Positions 3,657 to 64,000 of a DNA stretch of 64,000 nt are shown here, one piece after another. Source of the DNA: a virus; IMG/VR virus record IMGVR_UViG_3300022562_001344, positions 18,277 to 82,276 of that record. The stretch is one strand, 5' to 3'. Both the position numbers and the translations under genes were made by a program. Positions within the stretch are counted from its first letter, which is position 1. Every line of letters starts with the position of its first letter. The notes beneath the pieces were generated by a model. The model worked only from the letters and a program-made list of their open reading frames with translations, ran no database searches and had not been told where the DNA came from.

Positions 3657-4790
3657 ATGCCGAAGTTCTCCTTTCAGCCGGAGGACCTGAAGCGCGCTCT
3701 CGCGCTCGCTAGGACCGTCAAGCCAGAGACGGGGGACTTCTGTTTCAAGTTCGCGTCGGATTCCCTCATCATCTTCTCCTTCGACCGGCGTCGTTACGTC
3801 TGTTCCCGCGTACCCGCCACGCCGGACAAGCCGGTCGAGCCGGACTTCCAGTCCCCGGACTACTACGTGACCCTGGATCGGACTGCCCTTTTCGACTCGG
3901 ACCTGACGTCCGTCACCGTTTCCGTGAACGAGAAGTCGATGTCCGTGAGCGCGACGGATGGGGATCAGACGAGGAACGCGAGCCTGAAGCGCAAGGCTGT
4001 CCGTTCTAAGCGCCCGCCTGTCCCGTCCGCCCCGGACTTGCCATCAGTCAGTGTGCAGACCGCCGCGTTTGAGGCGCTCCTCCATCAGGTGTCGTGCTCT
4101 GCACTCGTCAAGGAGACTAAGACCGAGGAGGAAATGCGCGTCAACCAGGTCCACTTTTACGCGGACGACGGATGCGCTTGTTCCAGCGCCCGTTACTACG
4201 GATCCGCCGTGTATCTCGATGGGCTCGGCCTGGACCTTTCCGTGGTGAGCTCCGACATTCCGGCCCTTAAGTCGTTCTGCTCAAAGTCGGTCTCCGACGT
4301 CGTGAGCGTGAGCCAGGACAAGTCCCGCCTCTACCTGTCTGACCCGGTCTCCGGGTCGTTTCTCGCTCTCAGCAGGGTTGCGACTAAGAAGCCGCCCCTG
4401 TCCGTCCTTGATCCCGACGGCTTTCAGACGGTCATCGTCGCTGACCACTCACAGCTCCTGAAGAACCTCGGATGGGCCCAGTTGGCTATTGAAGGGACTC
4501 AACGCCTTGGCTTTCGGGCCTCGAGGCCCGGCGGTTCGGAGGTCGGGGAGGTCGTGCTTTGGTCCGAGTCGGCTGAACTCTCGAGGTTCCCGGTTCGCTT
4601 CTTGAAGGGAGATGGTCTGTCCGCGGATTTCCCGGTCCGATTCTTCCACTCTCTCGTCAAGCACGTGGACGGGGACGTGTCCCTCGGTTTTTCCCATCCG
4701 GACGCTCCGACGGTCCTTGGCGTATTCCCGACTCAGCCAGACCAGTCCGTTCGTTATGTTCATTATCTGCAGAGTATGAGGGCACGTTGA
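3657..4790 (+). CDS. DNA polymerase III beta / sliding-clamp-like protein
   Basis: 377 aa, alternating beta/alpha pattern in about three domains, same block as DnaX clamp loader; divergent. Confidence 0.6.
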   Translation: MPKFSFQPEDLKRALALARTVKPETGDFCFKFASDSLIIFSFDRRRYVCSRVPATPDKPVEPDFQSPDYYVTLDRTALFDSDLTSVTVSVNEKSMSVSATDGDQTRNASLKRKAVRSKRPPVPSAPDLPSVSVQTAAFEALLHQVSCSALVKETKTEEEMRVNQVHFYADDGCACSSARYYGSAVYLDGLGLDLSVVSSDIPALKSFCSKSVSDVVSVSQDKSRLYLSDPVSGSFLALSRVATKKPPLSVLDPDGFQTVIVADHSQLLKNLGWAQLAIEGTQRLGFRASRPGGSEVGEVVLWSESAELSRFPVRFLKGDGLSADFPVRFFHSLVKHVDGDVSLGFSHPDAPTVLGVFPTQPDQSVRYVHYLQSMRAR

Positions 4791-28329: not shown

Positions 28330-29907
28330 ATGAGTTTCCGCCGTTACGCGAACGCCATCGTCTCCCAGCCGAACATTGAGTTCGAACGTTGGATGGAAGA
28401 GCTCCGCACGGGCCATCAGGCTGCTGCGGAGGAGAAGCAAGTCGTGCGCCTGGCGAAGACGGTGCTGCGCAAGTGCGATCCGAAGCAGTATCTGCTCTCG
28501 CATGCGACCATCGTGGCCTCCGTCGACTGCTACGAGCCAGCCGACGCGAAGGTCGGGAAGTTCCTGAACCGGGACGTTGAGTGCGAGCGCCGCTGGTCGA
28601 ACTTTCGGATCAAGCCCGAATGCCAGGACATCATCAACAACAACGGGGACGCCTGGGAGCGCTCTCTCTTGCTGGCGACCTACCGCACCTTCATCGGCGC
28701 CCCGAACTACCTCGAGCACATCCAGATCCCGGAGCTCAGCAAGGGCTTCATCGTCGACGCCATCGCTCGCGATCTCGGTGAGACCTGCTACATTGACATC
28801 CTGGTCGCGACGGACCGCAAGCACAAGATGCTCGTTTCCGACATTATGGCGGAGAACATCCGCGCGATGTCGATGGGTTGCATCAGCCTCTTCACCATCT
28901 GCAACAAGTGCGGGAACGTCGCGGTCGACGACACCCAGCTCTGCCCCTGCGTCCTCTACGACGGGAAGGGGTCGACATTCAAGGACGAGACGGGGCGCGA
29001 CCACAAGCTCGCGGAGCTCATCGGGCATGTCAGTGTCCCGAATAGCAACCAGTTCATCGAGGCCTCCTGGGTCCGGAATCCGGCTTTCTCCGGTGCGCAG
29101 CGTCGAAACATCTTGAACCCGGAGTCGGCCGCCGTCGCAGCCAAGCTCGGGGATGCGGCTTCCGTTTACGAAATCCGTCGTGAGGAGATACACCTGGACG
29201 GCATGCCGCACGCGGCGTCCATGAGGCGAAGGGCGCAGGACGAGCCTGCCGACGAGGAGCCGGCGGAGTCCCCCTCCGGTGACGAGGAGGGGGCGGACGC
29301 CGGCGCGGATGACACGTCGGTTAAGGATGAGCTCGACGCGCTCGACGCGAAGTCCGACGACGGAGAGAGCGATACCCCGGAGACCGCTCCGGAGGCGCCG
29401 GCCGGGGACCATATTCAGGAGCTCGTGAACAAAGCGCAGGAGCTCCTCGTCGAGACCCTCGTAAAGGGTCTCGCGGAGAAGGTCGCCCCGAAGCCCGAGG
29501 ACGTTGGGACCGTCACCCCCGGCCTTTCTGACGCGAACTACAACGACAGCCTTATCGGGTTCGAGAAGGCTCTTCGCGCCAGGTTCCCGAACAGCCCGAA
29601 GCTTGTCAAGTGGGCGTGCAGGTCCTACCGGACCGTCCACGGCGGCGGCGCTGGGGCGATCCGGAAGGCCGGTATGTCGCCGAGGGACCTGATAGTCCTT
29701 TCATGGATCGAAGACGTCGTCAGAGAACGGCCGTACCCGGCCGCCCTATACAAGCTCGCCATGTCCGTCGGTCCCACGTCCTCATTTCCGAGCGAAGAGT
29801 CCTATCTCGCTGCCTGCGGGATCAGGGCCGGACGAAGGCTGGCTCGAAACGAAAAAGCCTTTCTCCTTTGGAAGGGCCGAATCGGATCACTCTCAGTCAA
29901 CTTTTAG
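28330..29907 (+). CDS. prohead (capsid maturation) protease with zinc-ribbon insert
   Basis: NNNGDAW, YLEH, SMGC (catalytic Ser candidate), CNKC..CPC, FIEASWVRNPAF; between portal and scaffold/MCP. Confidence 0.75.
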   Translation: MSFRRYANAIVSQPNIEFERWMEELRTGHQAAAEEKQVVRLAKTVLRKCDPKQYLLSHATIVASVDCYEPADAKVGKFLNRDVECERRWSNFRIKPECQDIINNNGDAWERSLLLATYRTFIGAPNYLEHIQIPELSKGFIVDAIARDLGETCYIDILVATDRKHKMLVSDIMAENIRAMSMGCISLFTICNKCGNVAVDDTQLCPCVLYDGKGSTFKDETGRDHKLAELIGHVSVPNSNQFIEASWVRNPAFSGAQRRNILNPESAAVAAKLGDAASVYEIRREEIHLDGMPHAASMRRRAQDEPADEEPAESPSGDEEGADAGADDTSVKDELDALDAKSDDGESDTPETAPEAPAGDHIQELVNKAQELLVETLVKGLAEKVAPKPEDVGTVTPGLSDANYNDSLIGFEKALRARFPNSPKLVKWACRSYRTVHGGGAGAIRKAGMSPRDLIVLSWIEDVVRERPYPAALYKLAMSVGPTSSFPSEESYLAACGIRAGRRLARNEKAFLLWKGRIGSLSVNF

Positions 29908-32132: not shown

Positions 32133-33029
32133 ATGGTGGCAGGAAACTTCGGAGTTCAGGTCGTCGACAACTCCATCAAGGAGCAGATCGTCGACCGCTT
32201 CATCGGGTCACCCGCGGGCCGTCGCCGGCTCGCCGCCTCGATGATTCAGCCGCTCCGTGAGCGGCGAGACTACTCGTCCGTCGGCCGCAAGACCTTCTTG
32301 GTCGAGCAGCTCCCGGACGGTGCGCTTCCGATCTACGACAAGGACCCGGACGTCATCGCGTACGTGATCGGCGAAGAGGGCGAGAGCATCACCGCGGTCA
32401 TGAAGCCGCGGCGCGTGATCTTCCCGCTCTTCGAGATCGCAGCGTTGCCCAAGGCTCCGCTGACGCAGATCAAGGAGCGCCGGTACGACCTCCTCAAGCG
32501 TATGCAGGACCTCGGCAAGGCGCAGATCCAGGCTGCCGAAGACGACCGCGTCTTCAGCATCATGGACGCCATTGCGGTGAACGGCTTCGACTCGCTCCCG
32601 GGCGGGACGAACCCGGACATCCCGGTGGTGGCGCCGATCTCGCCGGCCGTCCTCGCGGACGCCTTCGCGGAGATCGAGTTCCACGACCTCAGGGTCGCTC
32701 GCGTTTACATGAACGCGAGGGACTACGCCGACATCCGCAAGTTCGGCCGCGACGTTCTCGACATCGAGAGCCAGGCCACCTTGTGGAAGACCGGCATGAT
32801 GAGCACGGGCTGGAACGCCCAGTTCATCGTGTCGCGTCTCGTCCCGGCCGGCGTGGTCTACTGCTGCTGCGAGCCCGAGATGTTCGGTCGGATCCCGGTC
32901 CGCACCGAGCTCACGGTCCTCAGCGCGGACAACCCGGAGGAGCGCACCATCGGATTCAGCATGTTCGAGAACTTGGGCATCGGCGCCTACAACCCCCGTG
33001 GGTTGGTGCGTCTGATCGTCACTCGCTGA
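32133..33029 (+). CDS. major capsid protein (HK97 fold)
   Basis: Strong SD and codon bias; LAASMIQPLR..DY..VGRK, GEEGE E-loop, QIQAAEDDRVF, ENLGIGAYNPRG; synteny. Confidence 0.88.
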   Translation: MVAGNFGVQVVDNSIKEQIVDRFIGSPAGRRRLAASMIQPLRERRDYSSVGRKTFLVEQLPDGALPIYDKDPDVIAYVIGEEGESITAVMKPRRVIFPLFEIAALPKAPLTQIKERRYDLLKRMQDLGKAQIQAAEDDRVFSIMDAIAVNGFDSLPGGTNPDIPVVAPISPAVLADAFAEIEFHDLRVARVYMNARDYADIRKFGRDVLDIESQATLWKTGMMSTGWNAQFIVSRLVPAGVVYCCCEPEMFGRIPVRTELTVLSADNPEERTIGFSMFENLGIGAYNPRGLVRLIVTR

Positions 33030-39992: not shown

Positions 39993-40499
39993 ATGGCTGA
40001 AATGACGATCTCCCAGGCCCTCCGCAGGATCAAGAAGTTGAAGGGCCAGCTCGCCGAAAACCTGATCCGGTCGCAGGCCGGCGTATCCTACCGGGTGGGC
40101 GCCCCTCCTGCTTTCGCGTTTACAGCGTCTGTTCAGAAAGCGGACGCAATTCGCCAGGAGCTCGTCCAGCTCGAGTCCCGTCTCGCTGTTACGAACGCGA
40201 CGGCTCGGATCGATTTCCACGGAGACTGTCCTACCATCGCGTTTGCTATTCGTCAGCTTCAGGAGCTGAAGAGCCAGATTGCTTGGTACAGGGCCTTGCC
40301 CGTCCGGGCACACGAGGAGACGTCCGAGGAGACCTGGGACTACGACGAGGGAGGGAAGCACGTCCGGACGCAGGTTCCGTGGAAGTGCGACCTTCCTGAG
40401 GAGAAGCGGGCCACCGTTGTGGACGACCTTCAGGACCAATTCGACCGCCTCAACGACGCGGTCGAGAGGGCAAACCACGCCACGGTTCTCATGGCGTGA
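39993..40499 (+). CDS. DIP1984/DUF6847-like helical-hairpin protein
   Basis: MTISQALRRIKKLK N-terminus, LAVTNAT, second TIAFAIRQLQELK unit, C-terminal LNDAVERANHAT; family call from pattern recall. Confidence 0.6.
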   Translation: MAEMTISQALRRIKKLKGQLAENLIRSQAGVSYRVGAPPAFAFTASVQKADAIRQELVQLESRLAVTNATARIDFHGDCPTIAFAIRQLQELKSQIAWYRALPVRAHEETSEETWDYDEGGKHVRTQVPWKCDLPEEKRATVVDDLQDQFDRLNDAVERANHATVLMA

Positions 40500-40505
40500 A
40501 AGGAC

Positions 40506-40718
40506 GTGGGGCAGGAGGGCGAGCGCAGGAAGACCGGCGCGCCGCCAATGGCTTCGGCCTGAGGCAGCACCTCCTTTCTAAGGAGCTACAACGAACGCCA
40601 CCGATACCCTAGCGGTTAGCGGTCAGACCATCCTTCAGCATTCAGCAATAAGCGATGAGGTCTGAGGCGTCAGCACTCACTAAAGCCGGTCCGCCCGTGC
40701 GGACCCTCCTGTCCCCAC
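40506..40718 (+). ncRNA. structured RNA with 7-nt-periodic NAG array
   Basis: GTGGGGCAGGAGGG pairs CCCTCCTG(T)CCCCAC; GACCGGC/GCCGGTC; cUUCGg hairpin; AG at 40611/18/25 and 40637/44/51/58/65/72. Confidence 0.7.
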
Positions 40719-40719
40719 T

Positions 40720-40938
40720 TTAATCCCCCGGGTCAGCAAGTCCGAGGTTGGCCGTGAAGCAACGGAGGTGATATGCCGCCCTCCCGCGTCCCTCCGGGTC
40801 CCCCGCGTACGGAAGTATGACTCCCCGGTCCCCGGGTCCGAACTCCGTCCCGCATTCCGTGCACGGCCAATCCGGCGTCTTTCCTCGCTCGCAGCTTTCA
40901 TTTACCGGTGCCCCCCATGGCTGTCCGAACCATTGCAT
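40720..40938 (-). CDS. small Zn-finger-like protein
   Basis: GTAAGAT-N6-ATG; CTEC..HLRC. Confidence 0.65.
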   Translation of the reverse strand: MQWFGQPWGAPVNESCERGKTPDWPCTECGTEFGPGDRGVILPYAGDPEGRGRAAYHLRCFTANLGLADPGD

Positions 40939-40969
40939 GCCGGGATCTTACTCTGATGTATCCTCGATC

Positions 40970-41245
40970 ATGTCGGACTCGATCAAAGCCCTGAAAAGCG
41001 TCCTGCACTGGGCCGAGTTCGGGGAGCACGTCTCTGCGCGCCTCTCGAGCGTCCGCTTCATTCATGAAAGGGACGAGCAGACCCTCGACCGGGTCGTGAA
41101 GCAGGCCATGAAGATCATCTGCCCCCAGTGTCGTGGTGACGGACAGTCCTTTTTCTCCGATAACTCATGTAGCGAGTGTCATGGGACCGGCGAGAGGGCT
41201 TATGATCCGAACCTGAAGCCTGTCGGGGAGATCATGGAGTCTTGA
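40970..41245 (+). CDS. small protein with DnaJ-type CxxCxGxG finger and VxxIMxx tag
   Basis: CPQCRGDG..CSECHGTG; ends PVGEIMES. Confidence 0.7.
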   Translation: MSDSIKALKSVLHWAEFGEHVSARLSSVRFIHERDEQTLDRVVKQAMKIICPQCRGDGQSFFSDNSCSECHGTGERAYDPNLKPVGEIMES

Positions 41246-42355: not shown

Positions 42356-43303
42356 ATGCGGATCCTTATAGTAGAGGATAACCACCAGACCCGGCAGCTC
42401 CTGGTATACCTGCTGCAGGAAAGGTTCATGGAGGAGGCCAAGTTCCGTGAGGCCTCCGATCTAAAGACAGCCTTCCATTACCTGCGCATGTGGAAAGACG
42501 CCGACAGGAGAAGCCGCATCGAGGGAAAGGACGTGGACCCGATCTGCATCGTCCTTGACTTGTCCCTTCCGGATTCCGTCGGGCGAGAGACTTTCCTGAA
42601 GCTGTTCAAGGCTTTCCCCGATATACCTATCGTCGTCATGACGAACACGAACGACCGGTCCCTCGCCGAGGAGATGGTGGACATCGGTGCCCAGGATTAC
42701 ATCCTGAAGAATTTCACCGACGAGGAGGAGGTGTTCAGGCGCATATCCTTCGCCATAAGGCGACATCGCCGGTCCGTGTCCCTCCCCCCTCCCGACGCGG
42801 CCAGTATTCACAGGCTCGACTCGACGAAGGCTGAGCTCCTTAGCGCGCATGAGAGCGGTGAGCACAGGGTTCTGGAGGCCAAGAGCACGGAGCTCCTCAG
42901 CGGCATCACCGAGCTCGTCAAGAAGACCTTCGTGAGCGTCCAGGAGGTCAACATAAAGCAGGAGAAGCTCTCTCTCTCCCAAGAGCACATGGGGAAGGAG
43001 ATACAGACCTTGACGGACGAGGTCACCGGGTCCGGGACCCGGCGCTCCATGCGGTCCGAGATAGAGATCACCAACAACGAAGTCAAGAACATTAAGTCGG
43101 ACTTCGGTGAGTTGAAGGAGAGGATCGACAGGGTCGAGGACAGAAGGGAAGAAGAGGTGAAACGCAAGGACTCGGCCTCGGTTCAGATCAAGACGCATCA
43201 CATGGACAACCGGACGAAGATCATCCTTGCGGCCCTAAGTCTCTTCGGTGCACTCGTCACGGCCTGGCTCGCTGCGAAATACGGGATTAGCGTGAAGCCA
43301 TGA
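42356..43303 (+). CDS. response regulator: REC plus coiled coil plus C-terminal TM helix
   Basis: ILIVEDN, IVLDLSLPD, GAQDYILK; TM IILAALSLFGALVTAWLAA. Confidence 0.88.
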   Translation: MRILIVEDNHQTRQLLVYLLQERFMEEAKFREASDLKTAFHYLRMWKDADRRSRIEGKDVDPICIVLDLSLPDSVGRETFLKLFKAFPDIPIVVMTNTNDRSLAEEMVDIGAQDYILKNFTDEEEVFRRISFAIRRHRRSVSLPPPDAASIHRLDSTKAELLSAHESGEHRVLEAKSTELLSGITELVKKTFVSVQEVNIKQEKLSLSQEHMGKEIQTLTDEVTGSGTRRSMRSEIEITNNEVKNIKSDFGELKERIDRVEDRREEEVKRKDSASVQIKTHHMDNRTKIILAALSLFGALVTAWLAAKYGISVKP

Positions 43304-44460
43304 CCTTCGTCGATATTCTTCTGGCCGTTTTCGCGGTTTTGCTGCTCGCGGCTTTCCTCTCTTGTTTGAAGCGTCCGAGGACCGTAGAGATTCCGTTCTT
43401 CGACGACAAGTTCTTCGGTAAATCCCCAGATCCGTTGTGCGTGATCAGGCGGGACGGGAGGCTTCTCCGGGTGAACCGGACCCTCTCTGAAGCCCTGGGG
43501 TATGACGCGGCCGAGCTTCTCTCGACCTCGCTCTTCGACCTGGTTCATCCGGACGACCGGGAGCGCACGATTTCCGAGCTCAGGGAGCTGCGGGGCGAGT
43601 CTTCAATTGTCTCTTTCGAGAATCGGCTCGCCTGCAAGGACGGGTCCGTTCGCTATCTGTCTTGGCGGCTTTTCCTGTCCCTGGACGGGGATATCTACGG
43701 TGTGGCTCAAGACAAAACAGACCAGGTCCTTAGGGAGGAGAGCCTCCGTGAGCTCAATGATGACCTCGAGCAGCTTCTGTACATAGCGTCCCACGATCTC
43801 CGCGAGCCCCTCGTCGGGGCCGCCGGCTTCATCTCCCTCGTCACGACGAAATACTCTGATTCCCTCAAGCCGGAGGCCTCGGACTTCCTGAAAGAGGCCC
43901 TCGACGGTATCCGCCTCATGGAGAAGAAGATCGACGACCTCCTCCTGCTCTCAAGGGCCGGACGCATCGACACAGACGAGCACTTCCATATGGCCGGTGC
44001 CATCAGGGACGCGATGGCGTCCCTGAATGGCCGGCTTACGGACGTGGAGGTGGTCCTGGAGATGAACGAGGACGAGGACCAGGTCGTGGGAAGCCGGGTC
44101 ATGGTCGGTCAGGTTATACAGAATATCCTCGGGAACGCCCTGAAGTATCGCTCGTCGGACAGATCCCTGAGGGTGGCTCTCAGGGTTGCTAGGGACGGAC
44201 GGTTCGTGAAGGTGTCCATATCCGACAATGGGATAGGGTTTGATCCGCACCAGGCAGAGCGTGTTTTTCAGGCCTTCCAGCGTCTTCATTCCTCGGACTC
44301 TCCGTACTCCGGGACGGGCATAGGTTTGGCTCTTTGCCGTAAGATAGTGACGAGGCACGGAGGGTCCATCTGGGCCGAGTCCGTGGAAGGCAGAGGTTCG
44401 ACCTTCCATTTCACGCTTCCGGCAAGGAAAGATGGCGAAGACGGACATCCTGCTGATTGA
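43300..44460 (+). CDS. PAS-domain sensor histidine kinase
   Basis: N-terminal TM, PAS (VHPDD, CKDGS), ASHDLREPL, GNALKY, DNGIG, FQRL, GTGIGL. Confidence 0.95.
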   Translation: MTFVDILLAVFAVLLLAAFLSCLKRPRTVEIPFFDDKFFGKSPDPLCVIRRDGRLLRVNRTLSEALGYDAAELLSTSLFDLVHPDDRERTISELRELRGESSIVSFENRLACKDGSVRYLSWRLFLSLDGDIYGVAQDKTDQVLREESLRELNDDLEQLLYIASHDLREPLVGAAGFISLVTTKYSDSLKPEASDFLKEALDGIRLMEKKIDDLLLLSRAGRIDTDEHFHMAGAIRDAMASLNGRLTDVEVVLEMNEDEDQVVGSRVMVGQVIQNILGNALKYRSSDRSLRVALRVARDGRFVKVSISDNGIGFDPHQAERVFQAFQRLHSSDSPYSGTGIGLALCRKIVTRHGGSIWAESVEGRGSTFHFTLPARKDGEDGHPAD

Positions 44461-57275: not shown

Positions 57276-58595
57276 ATGCCCGCCTTCCTCGCTCGCTCAG
57301 ACCTCTCCAGCGGAGACCTGAGGCTGAACCTGATCAATGATGAGGGATTTGCTCAGGACGCCTTCAAGGTCACGTGGACGATTTATTCGTCCGACGGGGT
57401 CCCCGTTTCCGGGCGGGGCCTCCCGGCCCTGAAGTGCGGGGTTGGCCGGTATTACGCCCCATGGTGTGCGAAGGCCGTCAATGGGAACTACAGGATCGTT
57501 TGGTCCGTGGAGGAGGACCCGGGGGACGACGTCCTCACCTACGAGGAGAAGTTCTTCGTAGTCGAGCCTTCCGCCTACCAGTGCTGCCCGAACTTCGTGT
57601 GCGACAATGGGCAACCGGATCCGGGGGGCCTTGCATATCTGACCGGAAGTACACTCGGGAGGGGAGACCTCCCTATTTTCTTCAAGGACTCGTCCGGCGT
57701 TCCGACTGATCCGTTTGTGGTCCTCTGGACCGTTTACAACGTTGTCGGATACCCGATGACTTCACGGATGGAGGCCACCAGAGCTGCGATCGGGGAGTAC
57801 TATGCGGACTGGTTCGTGAACGCCATCGGGGGCGACTACTACGTCCAGTGGGAGTGGGTCGAGGAATCCGGAGACCCCGCCGAGTCGAAGAAGCTCTACT
57901 TCTCCGTCATCAGTCCGCCGGCGCTTGTTTTCACCAGCCGCGGTAATTGCAATACCGGGGGCGCGACGTCGTGCGCTCCCTCCGGCACCGACTGTTGCTC
58001 CTCCTCTTGTGTCGTCCCGCTCTTTCAGACCCAAGTCGTCAACAAGCAGGTTTACAGCGGCGGTGGCGGATCTTGTGGGGCGTTCGTTGGCTCTGTCCTG
58101 TGCGTGCCCCCGATCTCGTTCCCTCCATCCTCCCCATCCATTCCGGCTTCTGTTCCGTCGGCGGCTTGCTGTCCGTTCGAGGTCTCTCGGGTCCCGCATT
58201 TCTCTGGCGCCCTCATGGCCGGAGGTGCTTTCTCGGATCAGGCTCCCTTCAGCATTCCGTCCGGGGTCCGGCGCGTCGCCTTCTACATCACGTATACGCG
58301 CGGGGCCCAGAATGGGTACGGGCTGTTTCGCCTGATGTGGGGGAATGGGACCGACGAGACTCAGTCAACCCTCATTGACTCTGACTTCACATCTCTGTCC
58401 TCCGTGGCCTCATCCCAAGACATGTACCTGAACGACCTGAAGGGGCCCGTCCCGACTAACGGGAATCCGGTCAAGTTCACCCTCGAGACCGGGGTCCCGG
58501 GAGGAGCGACGACTGTCAGGCTTTTGGCTGCGGAGGGAGGGGCTACCGGGGCACCTGGGACGGTTAGTATCAGCTTGACAGCCGCGAGTCGATAA
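57276..58595 (+). CDS. virion protein with duplicated Ig-like domain and Cys-rich linker
   Basis: GDL..D.F.V.WT.Y..G.YYA.W..G.Y...W present twice; CC clusters. Confidence 0.7.
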
Positions 58596-61500
58596 TGTCT
58601 ATCGAGAACCCCCGCGGCAAGAAGCCCGGCGCGACCGGAGCCACCGGCCCTCAGGGGGCTACCGGGCCGCAGGGGGCTACCGGGGTTGTCGGCCCTACTG
58701 GTCCGACTGGGCCGCCCGGAGCTACTGGACCTCAGGGAGTGACCGGACCGCAAGGCGTCACCGGTCTACCCGGGCCAATTGGTGCCACCGGTCTGCAGGG
58801 GGTTACTGGTCTGCAGGGGGTTACTGGTCCGCAGGGGATTCAGGGATCGCCCGGAGTGACAGGGGCGCAAGGAGTCACTGGACCGCTCGGCGCCACTGGA
58901 CCGCAGGGGGTGACGGGCCCACAGGGCGCGACGGGTGTCATAGGCCCCCAGGGGATCCAGGGATCTCCCGGCTCAACCGGTGCAACTGGCTCTGTTGGTC
59001 CGACTGGCCCTCAGGGAGCTACCGGAATTCAGGGAGCTACCGGAATTCAGGGGATCACCGGTCCGCAGGGTCCGACCGGTCCTCAGGGCGCGACGGGTGT
59101 CATTGGTCCCCAGGGTTCCCCGGGTGTCACAGGACCAACAGGTCTCCAGGGTGCTACGGGTCCGCAGGGCGCTACGGGAGTTCAAGGACCGACCGGAGCT
59201 ACGGGACCACAAGGAGCTACGGGACCACAAGGAGCCACCGGCCCTCGAGGTGCTACTGGTGTGCAGGGGCCAACCGGAGCCACTGGCCCAACGGGATCCC
59301 AGGGCGCGACGGGACCCCAGGGCATCCAAGGGACGCCCGGACCGCGTGGGGCAACAGGTCTTCCAGGACCTCAAGGTCCACAAGGTTCGCCGGGCGCGAC
59401 CGGTCCACAGGGCGCGACCGGAGTTCAAGGACCAACCGGAGCCACGGGCCCGCAGGGTTCTCCCGGGACTACTGGTCCACAAGGTTCGCCGGGCGTAACT
59501 GGGCCCCAAGGCCCTACCGGGGCGACAGGACCGACAGGCCCTCAGGGTGTCACGGGCCCGCAGGGCGCCACAGGTCCGCAGGGCGCCACAGGCCCTCAGG
59601 GGGTGACTGGTACGACAGGACCGACAGGCCCGCAAGGCGCCACAGGCCAACAGGGAGCCACTGGCCCGCAGGGAGCCACGGGCGCCACCGGCCCGATCGG
59701 CCCACAGGGTCAAACCGGACCCGCTGGCCCAACAGGCCCGCAGGGCCAGACCGGAACCATAGGTCCGACGGGCCCGCAGGGGCAGACCGGAGCCACTGGA
59801 CCCGCCGGCGCTACTGGCCCCCAGGGGGCTACCGGTTCGATAGGGCCGCAAGGGATTACCGGATCGACAGGCCCGCAGGGCGCCACAGGCCCGCAGGGAA
59901 TCCAAGGATCACCGGGTGTCACCGGCGCGACCGGGCCGACCGGACCCCAGGGTGAGACCGGTCCGACCGGCCCGCAGGGCGCTACAGGCCCGCAGGGGAT
60001 CCAGGGATCACCGGGTGTCACCGGTGCGACTGGGCCCACGGGTCCCCAGGGATCGCCTGGCGTAACCGGACCGACCGGCTCGCAGGGGGCCACCGGGGTA
60101 CAAGGTCCGACCGGAGCCACGGGTCCGGCCGGAGCCACGGGTCCGGTCGGACCCATCGGCCCTCAGGGGACCCAAGGATCCCCCGGTGTAACTGGTGCAA
60201 CTGGACCGACCGGGCCACAAGGCCCGACGGGCCCGCAGGGGGAGCAAGGGACGATCGGGCCTCGCGGGTTCACCGGGTTGCCCGGACCGGCAGGGGCAAC
60301 CGGACCGACTGGGCCCCAGGGCCCTACTGGTGCAACTGGTCCCACTGGACCCGCCGGCGCTACTGGCCCTCAGGGTCCCCCCGGCCCTCAGGGTCCCCCC
60401 GGCCCCACAGGTCCGCAGGGTGACACCGGCCCGACGGGTCCTCAAGGTGCGACGGGTCCACAGGGTGGCCAGGGCTCCCCCGGAGTAACAGGGGCGACCG
60501 GTCCCACAGGCTCTCAGGGAGAGACCGGCCCCACTGGTCCTCAGGGCAATCAGGGGTCTCCGGGAGTAACAGGTGCGACTGGACCGACTGGTCCTCAAGG
60601 CAACCAGGGATCTCCTGGCGTTACAGGCCCTCAAGGTGATCAAGGGTCACCTGGTGCGACCGGCATAACTGGTCCCCAGGGCGAGCAGGGTTCACCCGGA
60701 GTCACGGGAGCAACCGGACCGCAGGGGGACCAAGGTTCACCCGGAGTTACGGGGTCTATTGGACCTGACGGAGCTACAGGTGCGACTGGTCCTCAGGGTG
60801 ATCAAGGCTCGCCTGGAGTCACAGGAGTCACGGGTCCCGATGGAGCCACCGGTGCAACTGGACCAACGGGCCCTCAGGGAGATCAGGGCTCTCCAGGTGT
60901 CACTGGGGCTACCGGGCCTACTGGTCCTCAAGGAAATCAGGGCTCACCGGGTGTCACAGGAGCGACAGGTCCTGATGGAGCCACAGGGGCGACAGGTCCG
61001 ACTGGACCTCAAGGTGATCAAGGTTCACCAGGAGTCACAGGTCCCCAGGGAAACCAGGGATCTCCTGGAGTCACTGGCGCCACAGGTCCACAAGGAACGA
61101 CTGGGCCTGACGGAGTCACCGGTGCAACTGGCCCCACGGGCCCCCAGGGAGATCAGGGATCCCCGGGTGTCACTGGTGCGACTGGACCTGACGGCGCGAC
61201 GGGAGCGATAGGACCGACTGGTTCGCAAGGTGACCAGGGAAGTCCCGGAGTTACAGGCGTGACTGGTCCTGACGGAGCCACAGGTCCGACGGGTCCGATG
61301 GGCGATCAGGGCTCCCCAGGTGTCACGGGTGCGACCGGCCCGGCGGGCCCAACGGGCCCGCAGGGAGAGCAGGGTTCTCCAGGAGTCACCGGAGCGACGG
61401 GTCCGACTGGGCCTCAGGGGGCTACTGGACCTGACGGTGCAACTGGACCCACGGGCCCCCAGGGAGATCAGGGCTCACCCGGAGTCACGGGAGCAACCGG

Positions 61501-64000
61501 ACCCACGGGTCCGCAGGGAGACCAGGGTTCGCCCGGAGTCACGGGAGCCACGGGACCGACTGGGGCTCAGGGTGATCAAGGGTCACCTGGTGTCACGGGG
61601 GCTACCGGTCCTGACGGGGCTACGGGTGCAACTGGGCCCGATGGAGCTACGGGTGCTACGGGCCCGACGGGTCCCCAGGGAGACCAGGGCTCGCCAGGTG
61701 TCACTGGTGCGACCGGATCGACGGGCCCACAGGGAGACCAGGGATCCCCGGGTGTCACGGGTGCTACTGGTCCGACAGGTCCTCAGGGAGATCAAGGCTC
61801 TCCTGGTGTTACCGGACCGACAGGGCCGCAGGGCGATCAGGGGTCCCCTGGAGTCACGGGTGCCACAGGACCCACTGGACCCCAGGGTGACCAAGGATCG
61901 CCAGGCGTCACTGGTGCCACAGGACCCCAAGGCGAGACCGGACCGACAGGACCTCAGGGCGATCAGGGTAGTCCCGGAGTAACCGGTGCCACTGGTCCTC
62001 AAGGAGATCAGGGGTCCCCCGGGGTCACGGGCGCTACCGGTCCGCAGGGTGAGCAGGGATCCCCGGGCGTCACTGGAGTGACAGGACCTCAGGGTAGTCC
62101 AGGAGTAACGGGAGCCACTGGGTCGAAGGGTGATACGGGTCCGACAGGGCCTCAAGGTGACCAGGGATCTCCTGGTGTCACTGGCGCAACCGGACCGCAG
62201 GGGGGCCAAGGTTCACCCGGAGTCACGGGAGCCACTGGACCAACTGGTCCCCAAGGAGATCAGGGATCTCCGGGCGTAACTGGTGCAACTGGGTCTGATG
62301 GAGTCACGGGAGCGACCGGTCCGACGGGTCCGCAGGGTGATCAAGGATCCCCAGGCGTCACTGGTGCAACTGGACCAACTGGCCCCCAAGGGGAGCAGGG
62401 CTCTCCGGGTGTCACAGGCGCAACTGGACCCGATGGAACAACCGGTGCTACTGGGCCTACAGGTCCGCAGGGCGATCAGGGTTCCCCCGGTGTCACCGGG
62501 GCTACTGGACCTGACGGAGCCACCGGACCGACCGGCCCCCAGGGGGAGCAAGGGTCACCGGGCGTCACTGGTGCAACAGGCCCGACAGGACCTCAAGGCG
62601 ACCAAGGATCTCCCGGGGTAACCGGTGCGACTGGACCTGACGGTGTCACGGGCGCCACTGGCCCGACTGGACCTCAAGGTGATCAGGGCTCACCTGGTGT
62701 CACTGGAGCAACTGGCCCCACAGGTCCGCAGGGAGACCAAGGAAGTCCGGGAGTAACTGGTGCGACAGGGCCAGATGGCGCCACAGGTGCGACCGGACCG
62801 CAGGGAGTACAGGGCTCTCCGGGTGTAACTGGAACAACGGGACCGACTGGTCCGCAGGGCAACCAAGGTTCGCCCGGAGTCACTGGTGCAACTGGTCCAA
62901 CAGGGCCCCAAGGGGATCAGGGCTCACCGGGGATCACCGGTGCGACAGGTCCGCAAGGTGAAACCGGCCCCACTGGACCCCAGGGTGATCAAGGCAGCCC
63001 AGGTGTTACCGGCGCGACAGGGCCGACCGGTCCCCAGGGCTCACCCGGGGTCACTGGGTCCACGGGCCCGCAAGGTGAGACCGGACCCACGGGGCCCCAG
63101 GGTGACCAGGGTTCGCCCGGAGTCACCGGTGCGACTGGTCCTGACGGAGTCACCGGAGCCACAGGTCCCATTGGGCCTACCGGTCCCCAGGGTGATCAAG
63201 GATCTCCGGGAGTCACCGGCGCCACAGGTCCACAGGGATCTCCAGGAACCACTGGGGCTACGGGGCCAACAGGCCCCCAAGGTGACCAAGGTTCACCGGG
63301 TGTCACGGGTGCGACAGGGCCTGACGGAGCCACGGGTCCGACCGGTCCCCAGGGTGATCAGGGATCTCCTGGGGTTACAGGTGCCACGGGCCCGACGGGC
63401 CCCCAGGGAGATCAGGGATCTCCTGGTGTCACGGGAGCAACTGGTCCCCAAGGCGAGCAAGGGTCCCCTGGTGCAACCGGTATAACTGGTCCTCAGGGCG
63501 AGCAGGGTTCGCCTGGTGTCACTGGTGCGACCGGTCCCCAGGGTAACCAAGGCAGTCCGGGTATCACTGGTGCTACGGGACCTCAGGGCGAAACAGGTCC
63601 TACAGGCCCGCAGGGTGAGCAGGGATCCCCGGGTGTCACCGGCGCCAAGGGTGAGCAGGGATCCCCGGGTGTCACCGGCGCCATCGGACCCACTGGTTCA
63701 CAAGGGGAACAAGGAAGTCCGGGAGTTACGGGTGCTACTGGTCCTCAAGGAGCGACTGGTCCAACCGGACCTCAGGGCGACCAGGGATCTCCGGGTGTCA
63801 CTGGAGCGATCGGTCCTACGGGTCCGCAAGGCCAACAAGGATCGCCCGGAGTCACTGGCGCCACCGGGCCAACCGGTCCACAGGGTGATCAGGGCTCCCC
63901 AGGTGTCACGGGTGCGACCGGCCCCACTGGGCCCCAGGGTGATCAGGGTTCTCCCGGAGTAACGGGCGCCACAGGACCACAGGGTGAGACAGGCCCCACT
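58595..64000 (+). CDS. very long collagen-like fibre protein (3' truncated by window; missing from ORF track)
   Basis: TAATG coupling; [11 protein letters not shown] then Gly-X-Y ([18 protein letters not shown]) from 58628 to window end in the same frame and register. Confidence 0.93.

What the first reader, a model, noticed from the sequence alone, without database searches (positions are those of the whole stretch)
39993..40718. DIP1984-like protein gene followed by a closed RNA structure displaying a 7-nt-periodic NAG array: candidate RNA-protein system
Seen: 6 nt after the stop of ORF 39993-40499 a ~213-nt non-coding element begins whose ends pair (GTGGGGCAGGAGGG 40506-19 with CCCTCCTG-T-CCCCAC 40704-18, 14 bp with one bulge; inner GACCGGC 40532-38 with GCCGGTC 40685-91). 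Inside are a cUUCGg hairpin (40550-59), a CTCCTT/AAGGAG hairpin (40571-85) and an apparently unpaired array CTAG, TTAG, TCAG (AG at 40611, 18, 25) and TCAG, TCAG, TAAG, TGAG, TGAG, TCAG (AG at 40637, 44, 51, 58, 65, 72): exact 7-nt spacing, degenerate spacers. Established: the TRAP ring binds (G/U)AG triplets at fixed 5-nt period. Inference: the adjacent helical protein (pattern like DIP1984/DUF6847) oligomerises and binds one heptad per subunit, forming a ribonucleoprotein, autoregulatory switch or type-III-like toxin/RNA-antitoxin pair. I know of no described system with this layout.
Basis: partly seen in the sequence, partly recalled or inferred. Interest (0 to 1): 0.88.

Follow-up and report, generated by a model that had tools for sequence, protein, structure and literature searches.

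The report
Phage protein with ten-heptad partner RNA
Right behind a small helical protein gene of unknown function, this large marine-sediment phage encodes a conserved, stem-closed RNA of about 213 bases that displays about ten evenly spaced 7-base units; the pair recurs in every relative examined and is probably an undescribed protein-RNA particle, possibly tied to RNA repair and tRNA processing.

Summary
Observation confirmed. It is conserved. Of 80 unique homologous loci with at least 300 nt downstream, 74 pass a crude heptad test (controls 3 of 76 and 4 of 80), and the other 6 carry the element on reading. A covariance model built from the window alone finds 31 of 81 other loci at E<=0.01, all co-oriented with the gene. 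The helices covary strongly (90.1% paired against 56.2% shuffled; 38 of 41 pairs with double changes). New here: the array fits a bounded ten-unit template with one register slip after unit 3 or 4. In relatives the module abuts RNase P RNA (15 unique loci), an RNA ligase, RtcB or tRNAs. No Rfam, PDB or literature match. Best reading: a cognate RNP with about ten protein sites, possibly serving RNA repair or tRNA metabolism. Toxin-antitoxin and autoregulation readings are unlikely. The scan had already noted this module on other DNA (35 findings, at least 34 genomes).

The parts
39993..40499 (+). 168-aa helical protein, divergent DUF6847/DIP1984 family member
   Evidence: ORF. Pfam PF20935 E 3.8e-5, 24.1 bits, below the 27-bit cut-off. 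NCBIfam NF038048 28.9 bits, below the cut-off of 70. 33 of 52 aligned homologues hit PF20935 at E<=1e-3. ESM Atlas model pLDDT 0.84, nearest clusters DUF6847-bearing and viral.
40506..40718 (+). Whole heptad RNA element (213 nt), begins 6 nt after the stop codon
   Evidence: Fold. Model R1 built from it matches 31 of 81 other loci at E<=0.01, all on the gene's strand. No Rfam match.
40506..40519 (+). P1 5' arm, pairs with 40704-40718
   Evidence: Helix 1: 14 pairs, all 14 with changes on both sides, 93.6% of cells paired.
40704..40718 (+). P1 3' arm with one bulged T, followed by a T-rich tail at 40719-40724
   Evidence: In 26 model-defined elements the 12-nt tails hold a mean of 5.1 T against 2.5 in control windows. 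11 of 26 tails have at least 6 T, against 24 of 520 controls.
40523..40529 (+). Intermediate helix 5' strand (pairs with 40694-40700)
   Evidence: structure. Helices 2-3: 6 pairs, all with double changes, 73.8% and 89.1% paired.
40532..40538 (+). P2 5' arm, pairs with 40685-40691
   Evidence: Helix 4: 7 pairs, all with double changes, 90.7% paired.
40685..40691 (+). P2 3' arm
40541..40568 (+). P3 hairpin with UUCG loop
   Evidence: Relatives have hairpins here, but of variable sequence and length, so most are gapped in the model alignment (helices 5-6).
40571..40585 (+). P4 hairpin
   Evidence: Variable in relatives.
40588..40606 (+). Semi-conserved single-stranded linker ahead of the array (ends ...ACCGAUA)
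   Evidence: Alignments.
40609..40629 (+). Array block A: units 1-3 (U-N-A-G-C), AG at 40611, 40618, 40625
   Evidence: At all ten unit sites A is 97-100% conserved. For units 1-9, G is 85-100% at the eight sites that reach the 85% listing threshold; unit 8's G falls below it. Slot logo.
40630..40634 (+). Register slip between blocks (5 extra nt here; 1-2 nt in most relatives)
   Evidence: slip of 1 nt in 21 and 2 nt in 25 of the 56 well-fitting elements.
40635..40683 (+). Array block B: units 4-9, AG at 40637-40672 every 7 nt, plus a degenerate tenth unit (AC at 40679)

Best explanation
The gene and the element form one co-transcribed module. The mRNA of the DUF6847-like protein continues into a stable RNA whose two ends pair (P1, P2). 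That RNA holds a loop of ten U-N-A-G-C heptads, in two in-register blocks of 3+7 or 4+6.

The most likely mechanism is that copies of the adjacent protein bind the heptads, one unit per protomer or two per dimer. This would give a ribonucleoprotein of fixed stoichiometry.

Shown here:
- The RNA is real, structured and on the plus strand.
- It is strictly linked to the gene and single-copy.
- The number of units is bounded.

Inferred:
- Protein-RNA binding and oligomerisation.
- Function. From the company the module keeps in relatives (RNase P RNA, RNA ligase, RtcB, tRNA islands), I place its job in stable-RNA or tRNA processing, repair or protection during infection. It would work like a Ro/Y-RNA-type accessory particle rather than a gene regulator.
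For: 1. Linkage.
- 74 of 80 unique homologous loci pass the lag-7 test, against 3 of 76 upstream and 4 of 80 coding controls. The 6 failures carry the element on reading.
- Clustering ORFs from 37 loci plus the window gave the protein itself as the only widely shared neighbour, in 34 of them.
- Four of 5 whole records have exactly one R1 match, beside the gene.

2. RNA and strand.
- Covariation on 25 homologues, window excluded: 90.1% paired against 56.2% shuffled, covariation score 0.571 against 0.153, 0 of 500 shuffles as high, slid controls at most 0.10.
- G-U/U-G cells number 60 against 17 A-C/C-A.
- All 44 locus matches at E<=1 lie on the gene's strand.
- The median gap from stop codon to P1 is 9.5 nt, and the tails are T-rich.
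- No promoter-like site between gene and RNA.

3. Array.
- The logo is U 64%, N, A, G, C 67%, N, N.
- A ten-slot template with one slip fits at least 8 of 10 in 56 of 82 elements, with 20 at 10 of 10. Shuffles reach at most 7.
- The slots just outside the template hold AG in only 0 and 2 of those 56.

4. Unit differs by protein subfamily. On reading, canonical DIP1984 loci show other 7-nt units (YAC-like), while all loci of this clade show UNAGC. A cognate reader would give this pattern.

5. Context.
- RNase P RNA starts a few to about 20 nt after the heptad RNA in most of 15 unique loci, and up to roughly 400 nt after it in three.
- An RNA ligase (PF09414) lies downstream in a cluster of 8 loci.
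- RtcB (372.6 bits) lies two genes upstream in L011, whose protein is 54% identical to the window's.
- tRNAs or tmRNA lie nearby.
Against: - No direct evidence of binding or of oligomers. The structure and complex predictors were closed.
- The window's own 82-kb record, estimated 19% complete, has no RtcB, RNase P RNA or tRNA.
- One complete 74-kb phage with the module has neither RtcB nor RNase P RNA, and the complete 436-kb relative keeps RtcB about 270 kb away. The RNA-repair link is therefore clade-specific and not obligatory.
- The tRNA neighbours are weak evidence, because those records are tRNA-dense throughout: 20, 22 and 15 tRNAs in 80, 46 and 25 kb.
- The covariation alignment was fitted to the model's structure, which leans towards it (caveat).
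- 26 of 82 elements fit the ten-slot template at 7 of 10 or fewer. I tested only a ten-slot template.
- The unit-by-subfamily contrast rests on reading four or five canonical loci, not on a count.
Confidence: 0.55

Rival explanations
1. The RNA is a stable non-coding RNA that acts without the adjacent protein. It could be a sponge or decoy whose ten units titrate a host RNA-binding protein or nuclease, or an RNA that pairs with other RNAs. The gene would merely share its transcript.
For: Arrays of short motifs in otherwise structured RNAs are how known sponge RNAs work (recalled: CsrB/RsmZ). No binding evidence ties the units to the DUF6847 protein. The unit contains frequent nuclease-like target motifs and stop triplets in all frames (reading).
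Against: Linkage to the protein gene was complete in 80 unique loci across many phage lineages and several bacterial MAGs, with one copy per record. A host-directed sponge would be expected to occur sometimes without the gene. On reading, the unit changes with the protein subfamily.
Confidence: 0.2
2. The element is a cis-acting 3' UTR device for the upstream gene: an mRNA stabiliser, a terminator, or an autoregulatory site bound by its own product. It would have no separate life as an RNA.
For: It begins 6 nt after the stop codon (median 9.5 nt in relatives), and P1 is followed by T-rich tails, like a terminator. No internal promoter was found.
Against: A structure of 200-440 nt with two covarying long-range helices, extra hairpins and a ten-unit array conserved down to 34-45% protein identity is far more than a terminator needs. 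In one clade it sits in a row of stable RNA genes, directly ahead of RNase P RNA.
Confidence: 0.12
3. A type-III-like toxin-antitoxin pair in which the repeat RNA neutralises a toxic protein.
For: A protein gene sits next to a repeat-bearing RNA. The family is common on small Acinetobacter plasmids (341 of 370 plasmid records with a match), a typical home of addiction modules.
Against: The units are 7 nt rather than the roughly 34-40-nt pseudoknot repeats recalled for ToxI-type antitoxins. The RNA follows the gene instead of preceding it. The protein has no nuclease or toxin family match in Pfam, NCBIfam or PHROGs. PADLOC was not searched.
Confidence: 0.04
4. A DNA-level element (origin, packaging or recombination site with 7-bp iterons), or a chance feature.
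For: Both strands fold about equally well.
Against: Compensatory changes keep the helices while their sequences differ completely. G-U pairs outnumber A-C by 60 to 17. Orientation relative to the gene is constant.
Confidence: 0.02

Closest known systems
HutP and its sites in the Bacillus subtilis hut leader RNA (recalled, not from a call; an earlier scan note also cites it)
   Same: NAG triplets separated by four arbitrary bases, which gives a 7-nt period, are read by an oligomeric protein. Here the AG period is exactly 7, and the first block has three units like one HutP site.
   Different: No HutP gene in the record. The partner here is an all-helical DUF6847 protein. There are ten units rather than 3+3. 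The array lies in a closed stand-alone RNA 3' of the gene, not in a 5' leader that controls a terminator.
TRAP and the trp leader (recalled)
   Same: A ring protein reads a row of (G/U)AG triplets, one per subunit, with a fixed number of sites.
   Different: TRAP's period is about 5 nt against 7 here. TRAP has eleven sites against ten here. The protein fold and the genomic role differ.
Ro60 (Rsr) with Y RNAs, as in rsr-yrlBA-rtcBA operons (recalled; lead from earlier scan notes)
   Same: A small protein has a dedicated non-coding RNA whose ends pair in a long stem, encoded next to RNA-repair genes. Here RtcB, an RNA ligase, RNase P RNA and tRNAs are neighbours in relatives.
   Different: No TROVE protein in the record. 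No Rfam Y-RNA-type match. Y RNAs have no heptad array.
DIP1984 / DUF6847 protein family (PF20935, NF038048), often annotated septicolysin
   Same: The window's protein matches both profiles end to end. 33 of 52 homologues reach E<=1e-3. Canonical members also have an unannotated gap of 300-500 nt behind the gene, with a shared GGCGAG motif near its start.
   Different: The window's protein scores below both curated cut-offs. Canonical members end in ...NW and carry other heptad units. This clade ends in ...ANH with UNAGC units. No function is known for the family.
ToxIN-type type III toxin-antitoxin systems (recalled)
   Same: A protein gene adjacent to an RNA made of tandem repeats.
   Different: Repeat length (7 nt against about 36), gene order, and the lack of a nuclease fold hit.
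RAGATH-27 motif (RF03100), said by an earlier scan note to cover the 5' part of a related RNA subfamily
   Same: Possibly the same superfamily of RNAs behind DUF6847 genes. This is a lead only.
   Different: No match at Rfam gathering thresholds in the window or in the 38 loci of this clade scanned, nor at E<=10 on 40300-40950.

Membership tests
DUF6847 / DIP1984 (protein) | Score at or above the curated cut-off of PF20935 (27 bits) or NF038048 (70 bits) | tested here: not met
   24.1 bits and 28.9 bits for the window's protein. The match spans the whole profile (8-140 of 141).
DUF6847 / DIP1984 (protein) | Homologues of the protein belong to the family | tested here: met
   33 of 52 aligned homologues match PF20935 at E<=1e-3, best 1.3e-11. 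The nearest ESM Atlas clusters carry PF20935 on 15-16% of members.
DUF6847 / DIP1984 (protein) | Same fold as the solved family member (3KDQ, named only in earlier scan notes) | not testable with these tools
A profile search of PDB sequences at E<=10 lists only unrelated coiled-coil proteins.
HutP-type RNA site | NAG triplets with 4-nt spacers | tested here: met
   The lag-7 excess and the logo.
HutP-type RNA site | HutP protein (PF09021) encoded | tested here: not met
   No match in the 82-kb record, which is a fragment.
HutP-type RNA site | Site lies in a 5' leader and competes with a terminator | tested here: not met
   The array lies 3' of the gene inside two closing helices.
TRAP-type RNA site | Eleven (G/U)AG triplets with 2-3-nt spacers | tested here: not met
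   The period is 7 and there are ten units. Lag 5 gives 42 pairs against 209 at lag 7.
Type III toxin-antitoxin (ToxIN-like) | Tandem repeats of about 34-40 nt upstream of an endoribonuclease toxin gene | tested here: not met
   7-nt units downstream of a helical protein with no nuclease family hit. PADLOC was not searched.
Ro60/Y RNA | TROVE-domain protein and a Y-RNA-type Rfam match | tested here: not met
   No TROVE in the record. No Rfam match at gathering thresholds.
Any Rfam 15 family, including RAGATH-27 | Covariance-model match at the gathering score | tested here: not met
   0 matches in the window. Only a chance mir-423 match at E 5.6 on 40300-40950. In 40 related loci only RNase P RNA, tRNA and tmRNA match, and none of those hits overlaps the element.

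The most novel reading that the evidence does not exclude
The module is a new class of ribonucleoprotein with fixed stoichiometry. Ten copies (or five dimers) of a DUF6847 protein would be laid on a ten-heptad rail, which is held in a loop by a long closing stem.

This particle would work with RNA-repair and processing enzymes (RtcB, Rnl-type ligase, RNase P) to keep tRNAs and other stable RNAs intact. In phages it would serve as a counter-measure to host nucleases that cut tRNAs.

The paired ends of P1 would also be an ideal substrate for end-joining, so the RNA might even be circularised.
Probability: 0.2. Interest if true: 0.9.

Novelty: categorically new. Interest (0 to 1): 0.8.

Why it matters
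If the reading holds, a widespread protein family of unknown function (DUF6847/DIP1984, 'septicolysin') gains a partner and a testable job. A new family of structured RNAs is defined, found in large phages, bacterial MAGs and plasmids. The bounded ten-unit 7-nt array makes sharp predictions that are easy to test: stoichiometry, loss of binding on AG mutation, and sensitivity to spacing. The tight synteny with a phage-borne RNase P RNA, an RNA ligase and RtcB suggests that large phages carry an RNA-maintenance toolkit larger than the tRNAs and tmRNAs reported so far.

Tried and rejected
Structural alignment
- MAFFT plus RNAalifold on 15 elements gave no usable consensus: 4 pairs, -0.32 kcal/mol. 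MAFFT on 9 trimmed elements did not keep the ends flush.
- I therefore built a single-sequence covariance model from the window.
The clade followed by RNase P RNA is therefore aligned only in part.
- A crude test of contiguous closing stems gave 34 of 76 elements with 0 of 100 shuffles as good, 49 of 76 with at most 5, and a median z of 3.15. Bulged stems fail this test.

Searches that found nothing
- Expression: no RNA holder listed. The 3 runs listed are DNA runs from one marine-sediment study, and one may be the source sample.
- tblastn of the protein against GenBank phages: no match.
- The first viral scan with the single protein: none.
- PDB sequence profile search: nothing related.
- Literature, from search listings and the starts of abstracts only:
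  - 'DIP1984' and 'DUF6847' have 0 occurrences in every one of the 20 of 35 papers listed.
  - Heptad/jumbo-phage/noncoding terms returned 1 unrelated paper.
  - 'RAGATH-27' and 'RF03100' returned 0 papers.
  - No listed paper joins RNase P RNA with huge or jumbo phages.
  - Supplements were closed and may hold relevant tables.

False leads
- The arrays upstream of the gene in L061 and L015, and the first 'array' in L050, are coding or GA-rich repeats, not RNA elements.
- L133 and L134 are false DUF6847 hits.
- The P4 hairpin of the window resembles an anti-Shine-Dalgarno/Shine-Dalgarno pair, but it is not conserved. I dropped it.
- A short pairing between the linker (ACCG) and unit 1 (CGGU) covaries only in part by eye. 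It is left open.
- The weak anti-TRAP/DnaJ zinc-finger hit of the next ORF (40817-41245) is not conserved beside the module. I dropped it.
- A viral scan with canonical DIP1984 proteins gave only 1 locus, so I could not count whether the unit co-varies with the protein clade.

Full report
**Setting.** The window is part of an 82,276-base IMG/VR virus record, linear, estimated 19% complete. That estimate implies a very large phage. PHROGs finds a major head protein at 32133-33029 and a head-protease-like gene at 28330-29907. Public runs that hold the stretch are marine-sediment metagenomes. The record has no tRNA, and the window has no Rfam match at gathering scores.

**The observation.**
- The minimum-free-energy fold of 40500-40725 contains the outer helix (40506-19 with 40704-18, one bulged T), an intermediate helix, the inner helix (40532-38 with 40685-91) and the two hairpins. 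The energy is z = -4.35 against shuffles.
- The opposite strand folds about as well, so the strand had to be settled otherwise.

**The protein.**
- The 168-aa ORF matches DUF6847 (PF20935) and the DIP1984 family (NF038048) along its whole length, but below both curated cut-offs.
- A search of the large protein collection gave 53 proteins at E<=0.001 among 126 candidates, itself included, at 42-75% identity.
- 33 of the 52 aligned proteins hit PF20935 at E<=1e-3.
- Invariant positions cluster in a basic N-terminal helix (R11, K15, K17, G18) and a C-terminal motif (F150, L153, N154, E158, N161, with H162 nearly invariant).
- The ESM Atlas holds a confident model (pLDDT 0.84). Its structural neighbours are DUF6847-bearing viral clusters and a cluster automatically named 'Siphovirus Gp157' (TM 0.79).
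- I could not fold it myself.

**Conservation of the element.**
- Scans with the protein alignment fetched 8 loci from genome MAGs, 29 from viral contigs (several of 180-436 kb) and 80 from metagenomes.
- Of 117 loci with a tblastn match, 100 have at least 300 nt downstream, and 80 of those are unique.
- 74 of the 80 have at least four AG pairs at lag 7 within 130 nt. Controls gave 3 of 76 upstream stretches and 4 of 80 coding stretches.
- Some of the control hits that I looked at are coding repeats.
- I read the six failures. All six carry the element, with a degenerate, interrupted or displaced array.
- Pooled lag counts peak only at multiples of 7. The unit logo is U(64%)-N-A-G-C(67%)-N-N.

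**Structure and strand.**
- Exact-stem searches showed closing stems of 9-23 bp whose sequences differ completely between clades.
- A covariance model made from the window's sequence and fold alone (R1) found 44 matches in the 81 other loci at E<=1. 31 of them were at E<=0.01, and all lie on the strand of the protein gene.
- The window's minus strand scored 33.8 bits against 286.2 for the plus strand.
- On the model alignment of 25 homologues, window excluded, 90.1% of cells pair against 56.2% after shuffling. 38 of 41 pairs show changes on both sides. The covariation score is 0.571 against 0.153, with 0 of 500 shuffles as high. Sliding the partners by 1-3 columns drops the score to 0.10 or less.
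- P1 (14 pairs) and P2 (7 pairs) carry the signal. The two inner hairpins are too variable to be aligned.
- This alignment is fitted to the model, which favours the structure, but the margin is large.
- G-U pairs outnumber A-C by 60 to 17.
- P1 starts a median of 9.5 nt after the stop codon, and the 12 nt after P1 are T-rich: mean 5.1 T against 2.5.
- No promoter-like site lies between gene and RNA.
- I conclude that the element is an RNA made on the plus strand, most likely as the 3' continuation of the protein's mRNA.

**The array has a fixed size.**
- Chains of in-register AG recur as 3+7, 4+6 or, in the window, 3+6.
- A ten-slot template with one register slip fits at least 8 of 10 slots in 56 of 82 unique elements: 20 at 10 of 10 and 20 at 9 of 10. 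Shuffled elements reach at most 7.
- The slip follows unit 3 in 28 and unit 4 in 14 of the 56. It is 1-2 nt in 46 of them.
- The slots just outside the template hold AG in 0 and 2 of 56.
- The window's tenth unit is degenerate, with AC at 40679.
- A bounded, conserved number of sites is what a particle of fixed composition predicts. It is not what a simple sponge or a filament nucleation site predicts.
- Only a ten-slot template was tried. The 26 poorer fits include arrays interrupted by inserted hairpins.

**Genomic company.**
- ORF clustering over 37 loci plus the window gave the protein itself, in 34 of them, as the only widely shared neighbour.
- Rfam scans of 40 related loci showed a complete class-A bacterial RNase P RNA gene on the same strand downstream of the heptad RNA in 13 loci, at 252-308 bits.
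- A local nhmmer profile adds two more, making 15 unique loci.
- Taken against the element ends, the RNase P RNA begins a few to about 20 nt after the heptad RNA in most of them. In L014, for example, the element ends at 3794 and RNase P RNA starts at 3804. In three loci (L022, L023, L037) the gap is larger, up to roughly 400 nt.
- In that clade a protein matching RNA_ligase (PF09414, 32.1 bits) follows in a cluster of 8 loci, and an HNH protein precedes.
- In L011, a 183-kb phage record whose protein is 54% identical to the window's, RtcB (372.6 bits) and a methyltransferase lie directly upstream.
- tRNAs or a tmRNA lie within 3 kb in several loci. Those records are tRNA-dense throughout, so this adds little.
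- The link is not universal. The window's record has no RtcB. The complete 436-kb relative has RtcB about 270 kb from the module. A complete 74-kb phage with the module has neither RtcB nor RNase P RNA.

**Wider family.**
- Canonical DIP1984 genes were fetched from unnamed bacterial genomes (3 of 401 and 5 of 401 genomes sampled in two phyla) and from plasmids (370 records, 341 of them Acinetobacter).
- In the two annotated plasmid loci with downstream features, the gene is followed by an unannotated gap of 300-500 nt.
- On reading, these gaps share a GGCGAG motif near the start with the window's clade.
- Their 7-nt units are different (YAC-like), and one has a tRNA T-arm-like stretch.
- This was read, not counted. 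It fits a cognate reader whose specificity changes with the protein.

**Reading.**
- The best-supported explanation is a dedicated protein-RNA particle in which the DUF6847 protein occupies the ten heptads.
- I place its role in RNA repair or tRNA processing on synteny alone, and with lower confidence.
- The sponge, 3'-UTR, toxin-antitoxin and DNA-element rivals are weighed in their own sections.

**Comparison with the known.**
- The nearest working analogy for the array is the HutP site (7-nt NAG period), not TRAP.
- The nearest analogy for the module as a whole is Ro60 with Y RNA beside RtcB.
- Defining features of each were tested and not met.
- Five literature searches found no description. 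I saw only search listings and the starts of abstracts.

**Earlier notes of this scan.**
- The same kind of module has been noted before on other DNA: 35 findings in at least 34 genomes.
- Those notes gave me the leads on RtcB, tRNA neighbourhoods, unit variation, HutP, Y RNA, RAGATH-27 and 3KDQ.
- I confirmed the RtcB lead and the unit motif here.
- I found no RAGATH-27 match in this clade.
- I could not test 3KDQ.

**Limits.**
- There is no expression data, no binding or oligomer prediction, and no full-length model for the longer clades.
- The counts come from metagenomic loci fetched through conserved peptide patterns, so relatives that lack those patterns were not sampled.

Noticed in passing
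L014 3804-4294, L019 3814-4153, L022 3917-4278, L023 4225-4568, L015 3812-4141, L025 3983-4346, L037 3976-4476, L038 1852-2334, L065, L067, L074, L079, L081 (Rfam); L075, L087 (nhmmer only): Large phage contigs carry a full-length class-A bacterial RNase P RNA gene (252-308 bits). It lies on the same strand downstream of the heptad RNA, mostly a few to about 20 nt after it, and an RNA ligase gene follows. No paper listed in my searches mentions a phage RNase P RNA; I saw listings only.
   Followed up: partly
L011 998-2206 and 2215-2895: A 183-kb phage record encodes RtcB (372.6 bits) and an FkbM-type methyltransferase directly upstream of the DUF6847 gene and its RNA.
   Followed up: partly
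window 40817-41245 (+): The next ORF has a DnaJ-type CXXCXGXG zinc-finger at its C-terminus, with weak sub-threshold hits that include the anti-TRAP model. It is not conserved beside the module in relatives.
   Followed up: partly
window 42356-44460 (+): ORFs of 315 and 386 aa follow. An earlier scan note reads them as a receiver-domain protein and a histidine kinase, that is, a two-component system inside a phage record. No family search was run on them here.
   Followed up: no
window 58595-64000 (+): A very long ORF (at least 1802 aa) is still open at the window's end. An earlier scan note calls it collagen-like. It was not examined here.
   Followed up: no
G000:C1:14586-15776 (-), outside the window: A roughly 400-aa ORF has a sub-threshold RNA_ligase (PF09414) match (22.4 bits, E 6.1e-6). 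It lies about 43 kb from the module.
   Followed up: no
L122 1187-1396 and its 3' gap; L136 1363-1857; L137 1351-1667: Canonical bacterial and plasmid DIP1984 genes are followed by unannotated gaps with a shared GGCGAG motif and 7-nt units of another sequence. L122 also has two tRNA genes just upstream and a T-arm-like stretch in the gap.
   Followed up: partly
L002 5155-5496: A tmRNA gene (137 bits) lies 1.3 kb downstream of the module in a roughly 1.1-Mb MAG.
   Followed up: no
L024 / G409: The module also occurs in a complete 74-kb phage with terminal repeats, so it is not confined to huge phages.
   Followed up: partly
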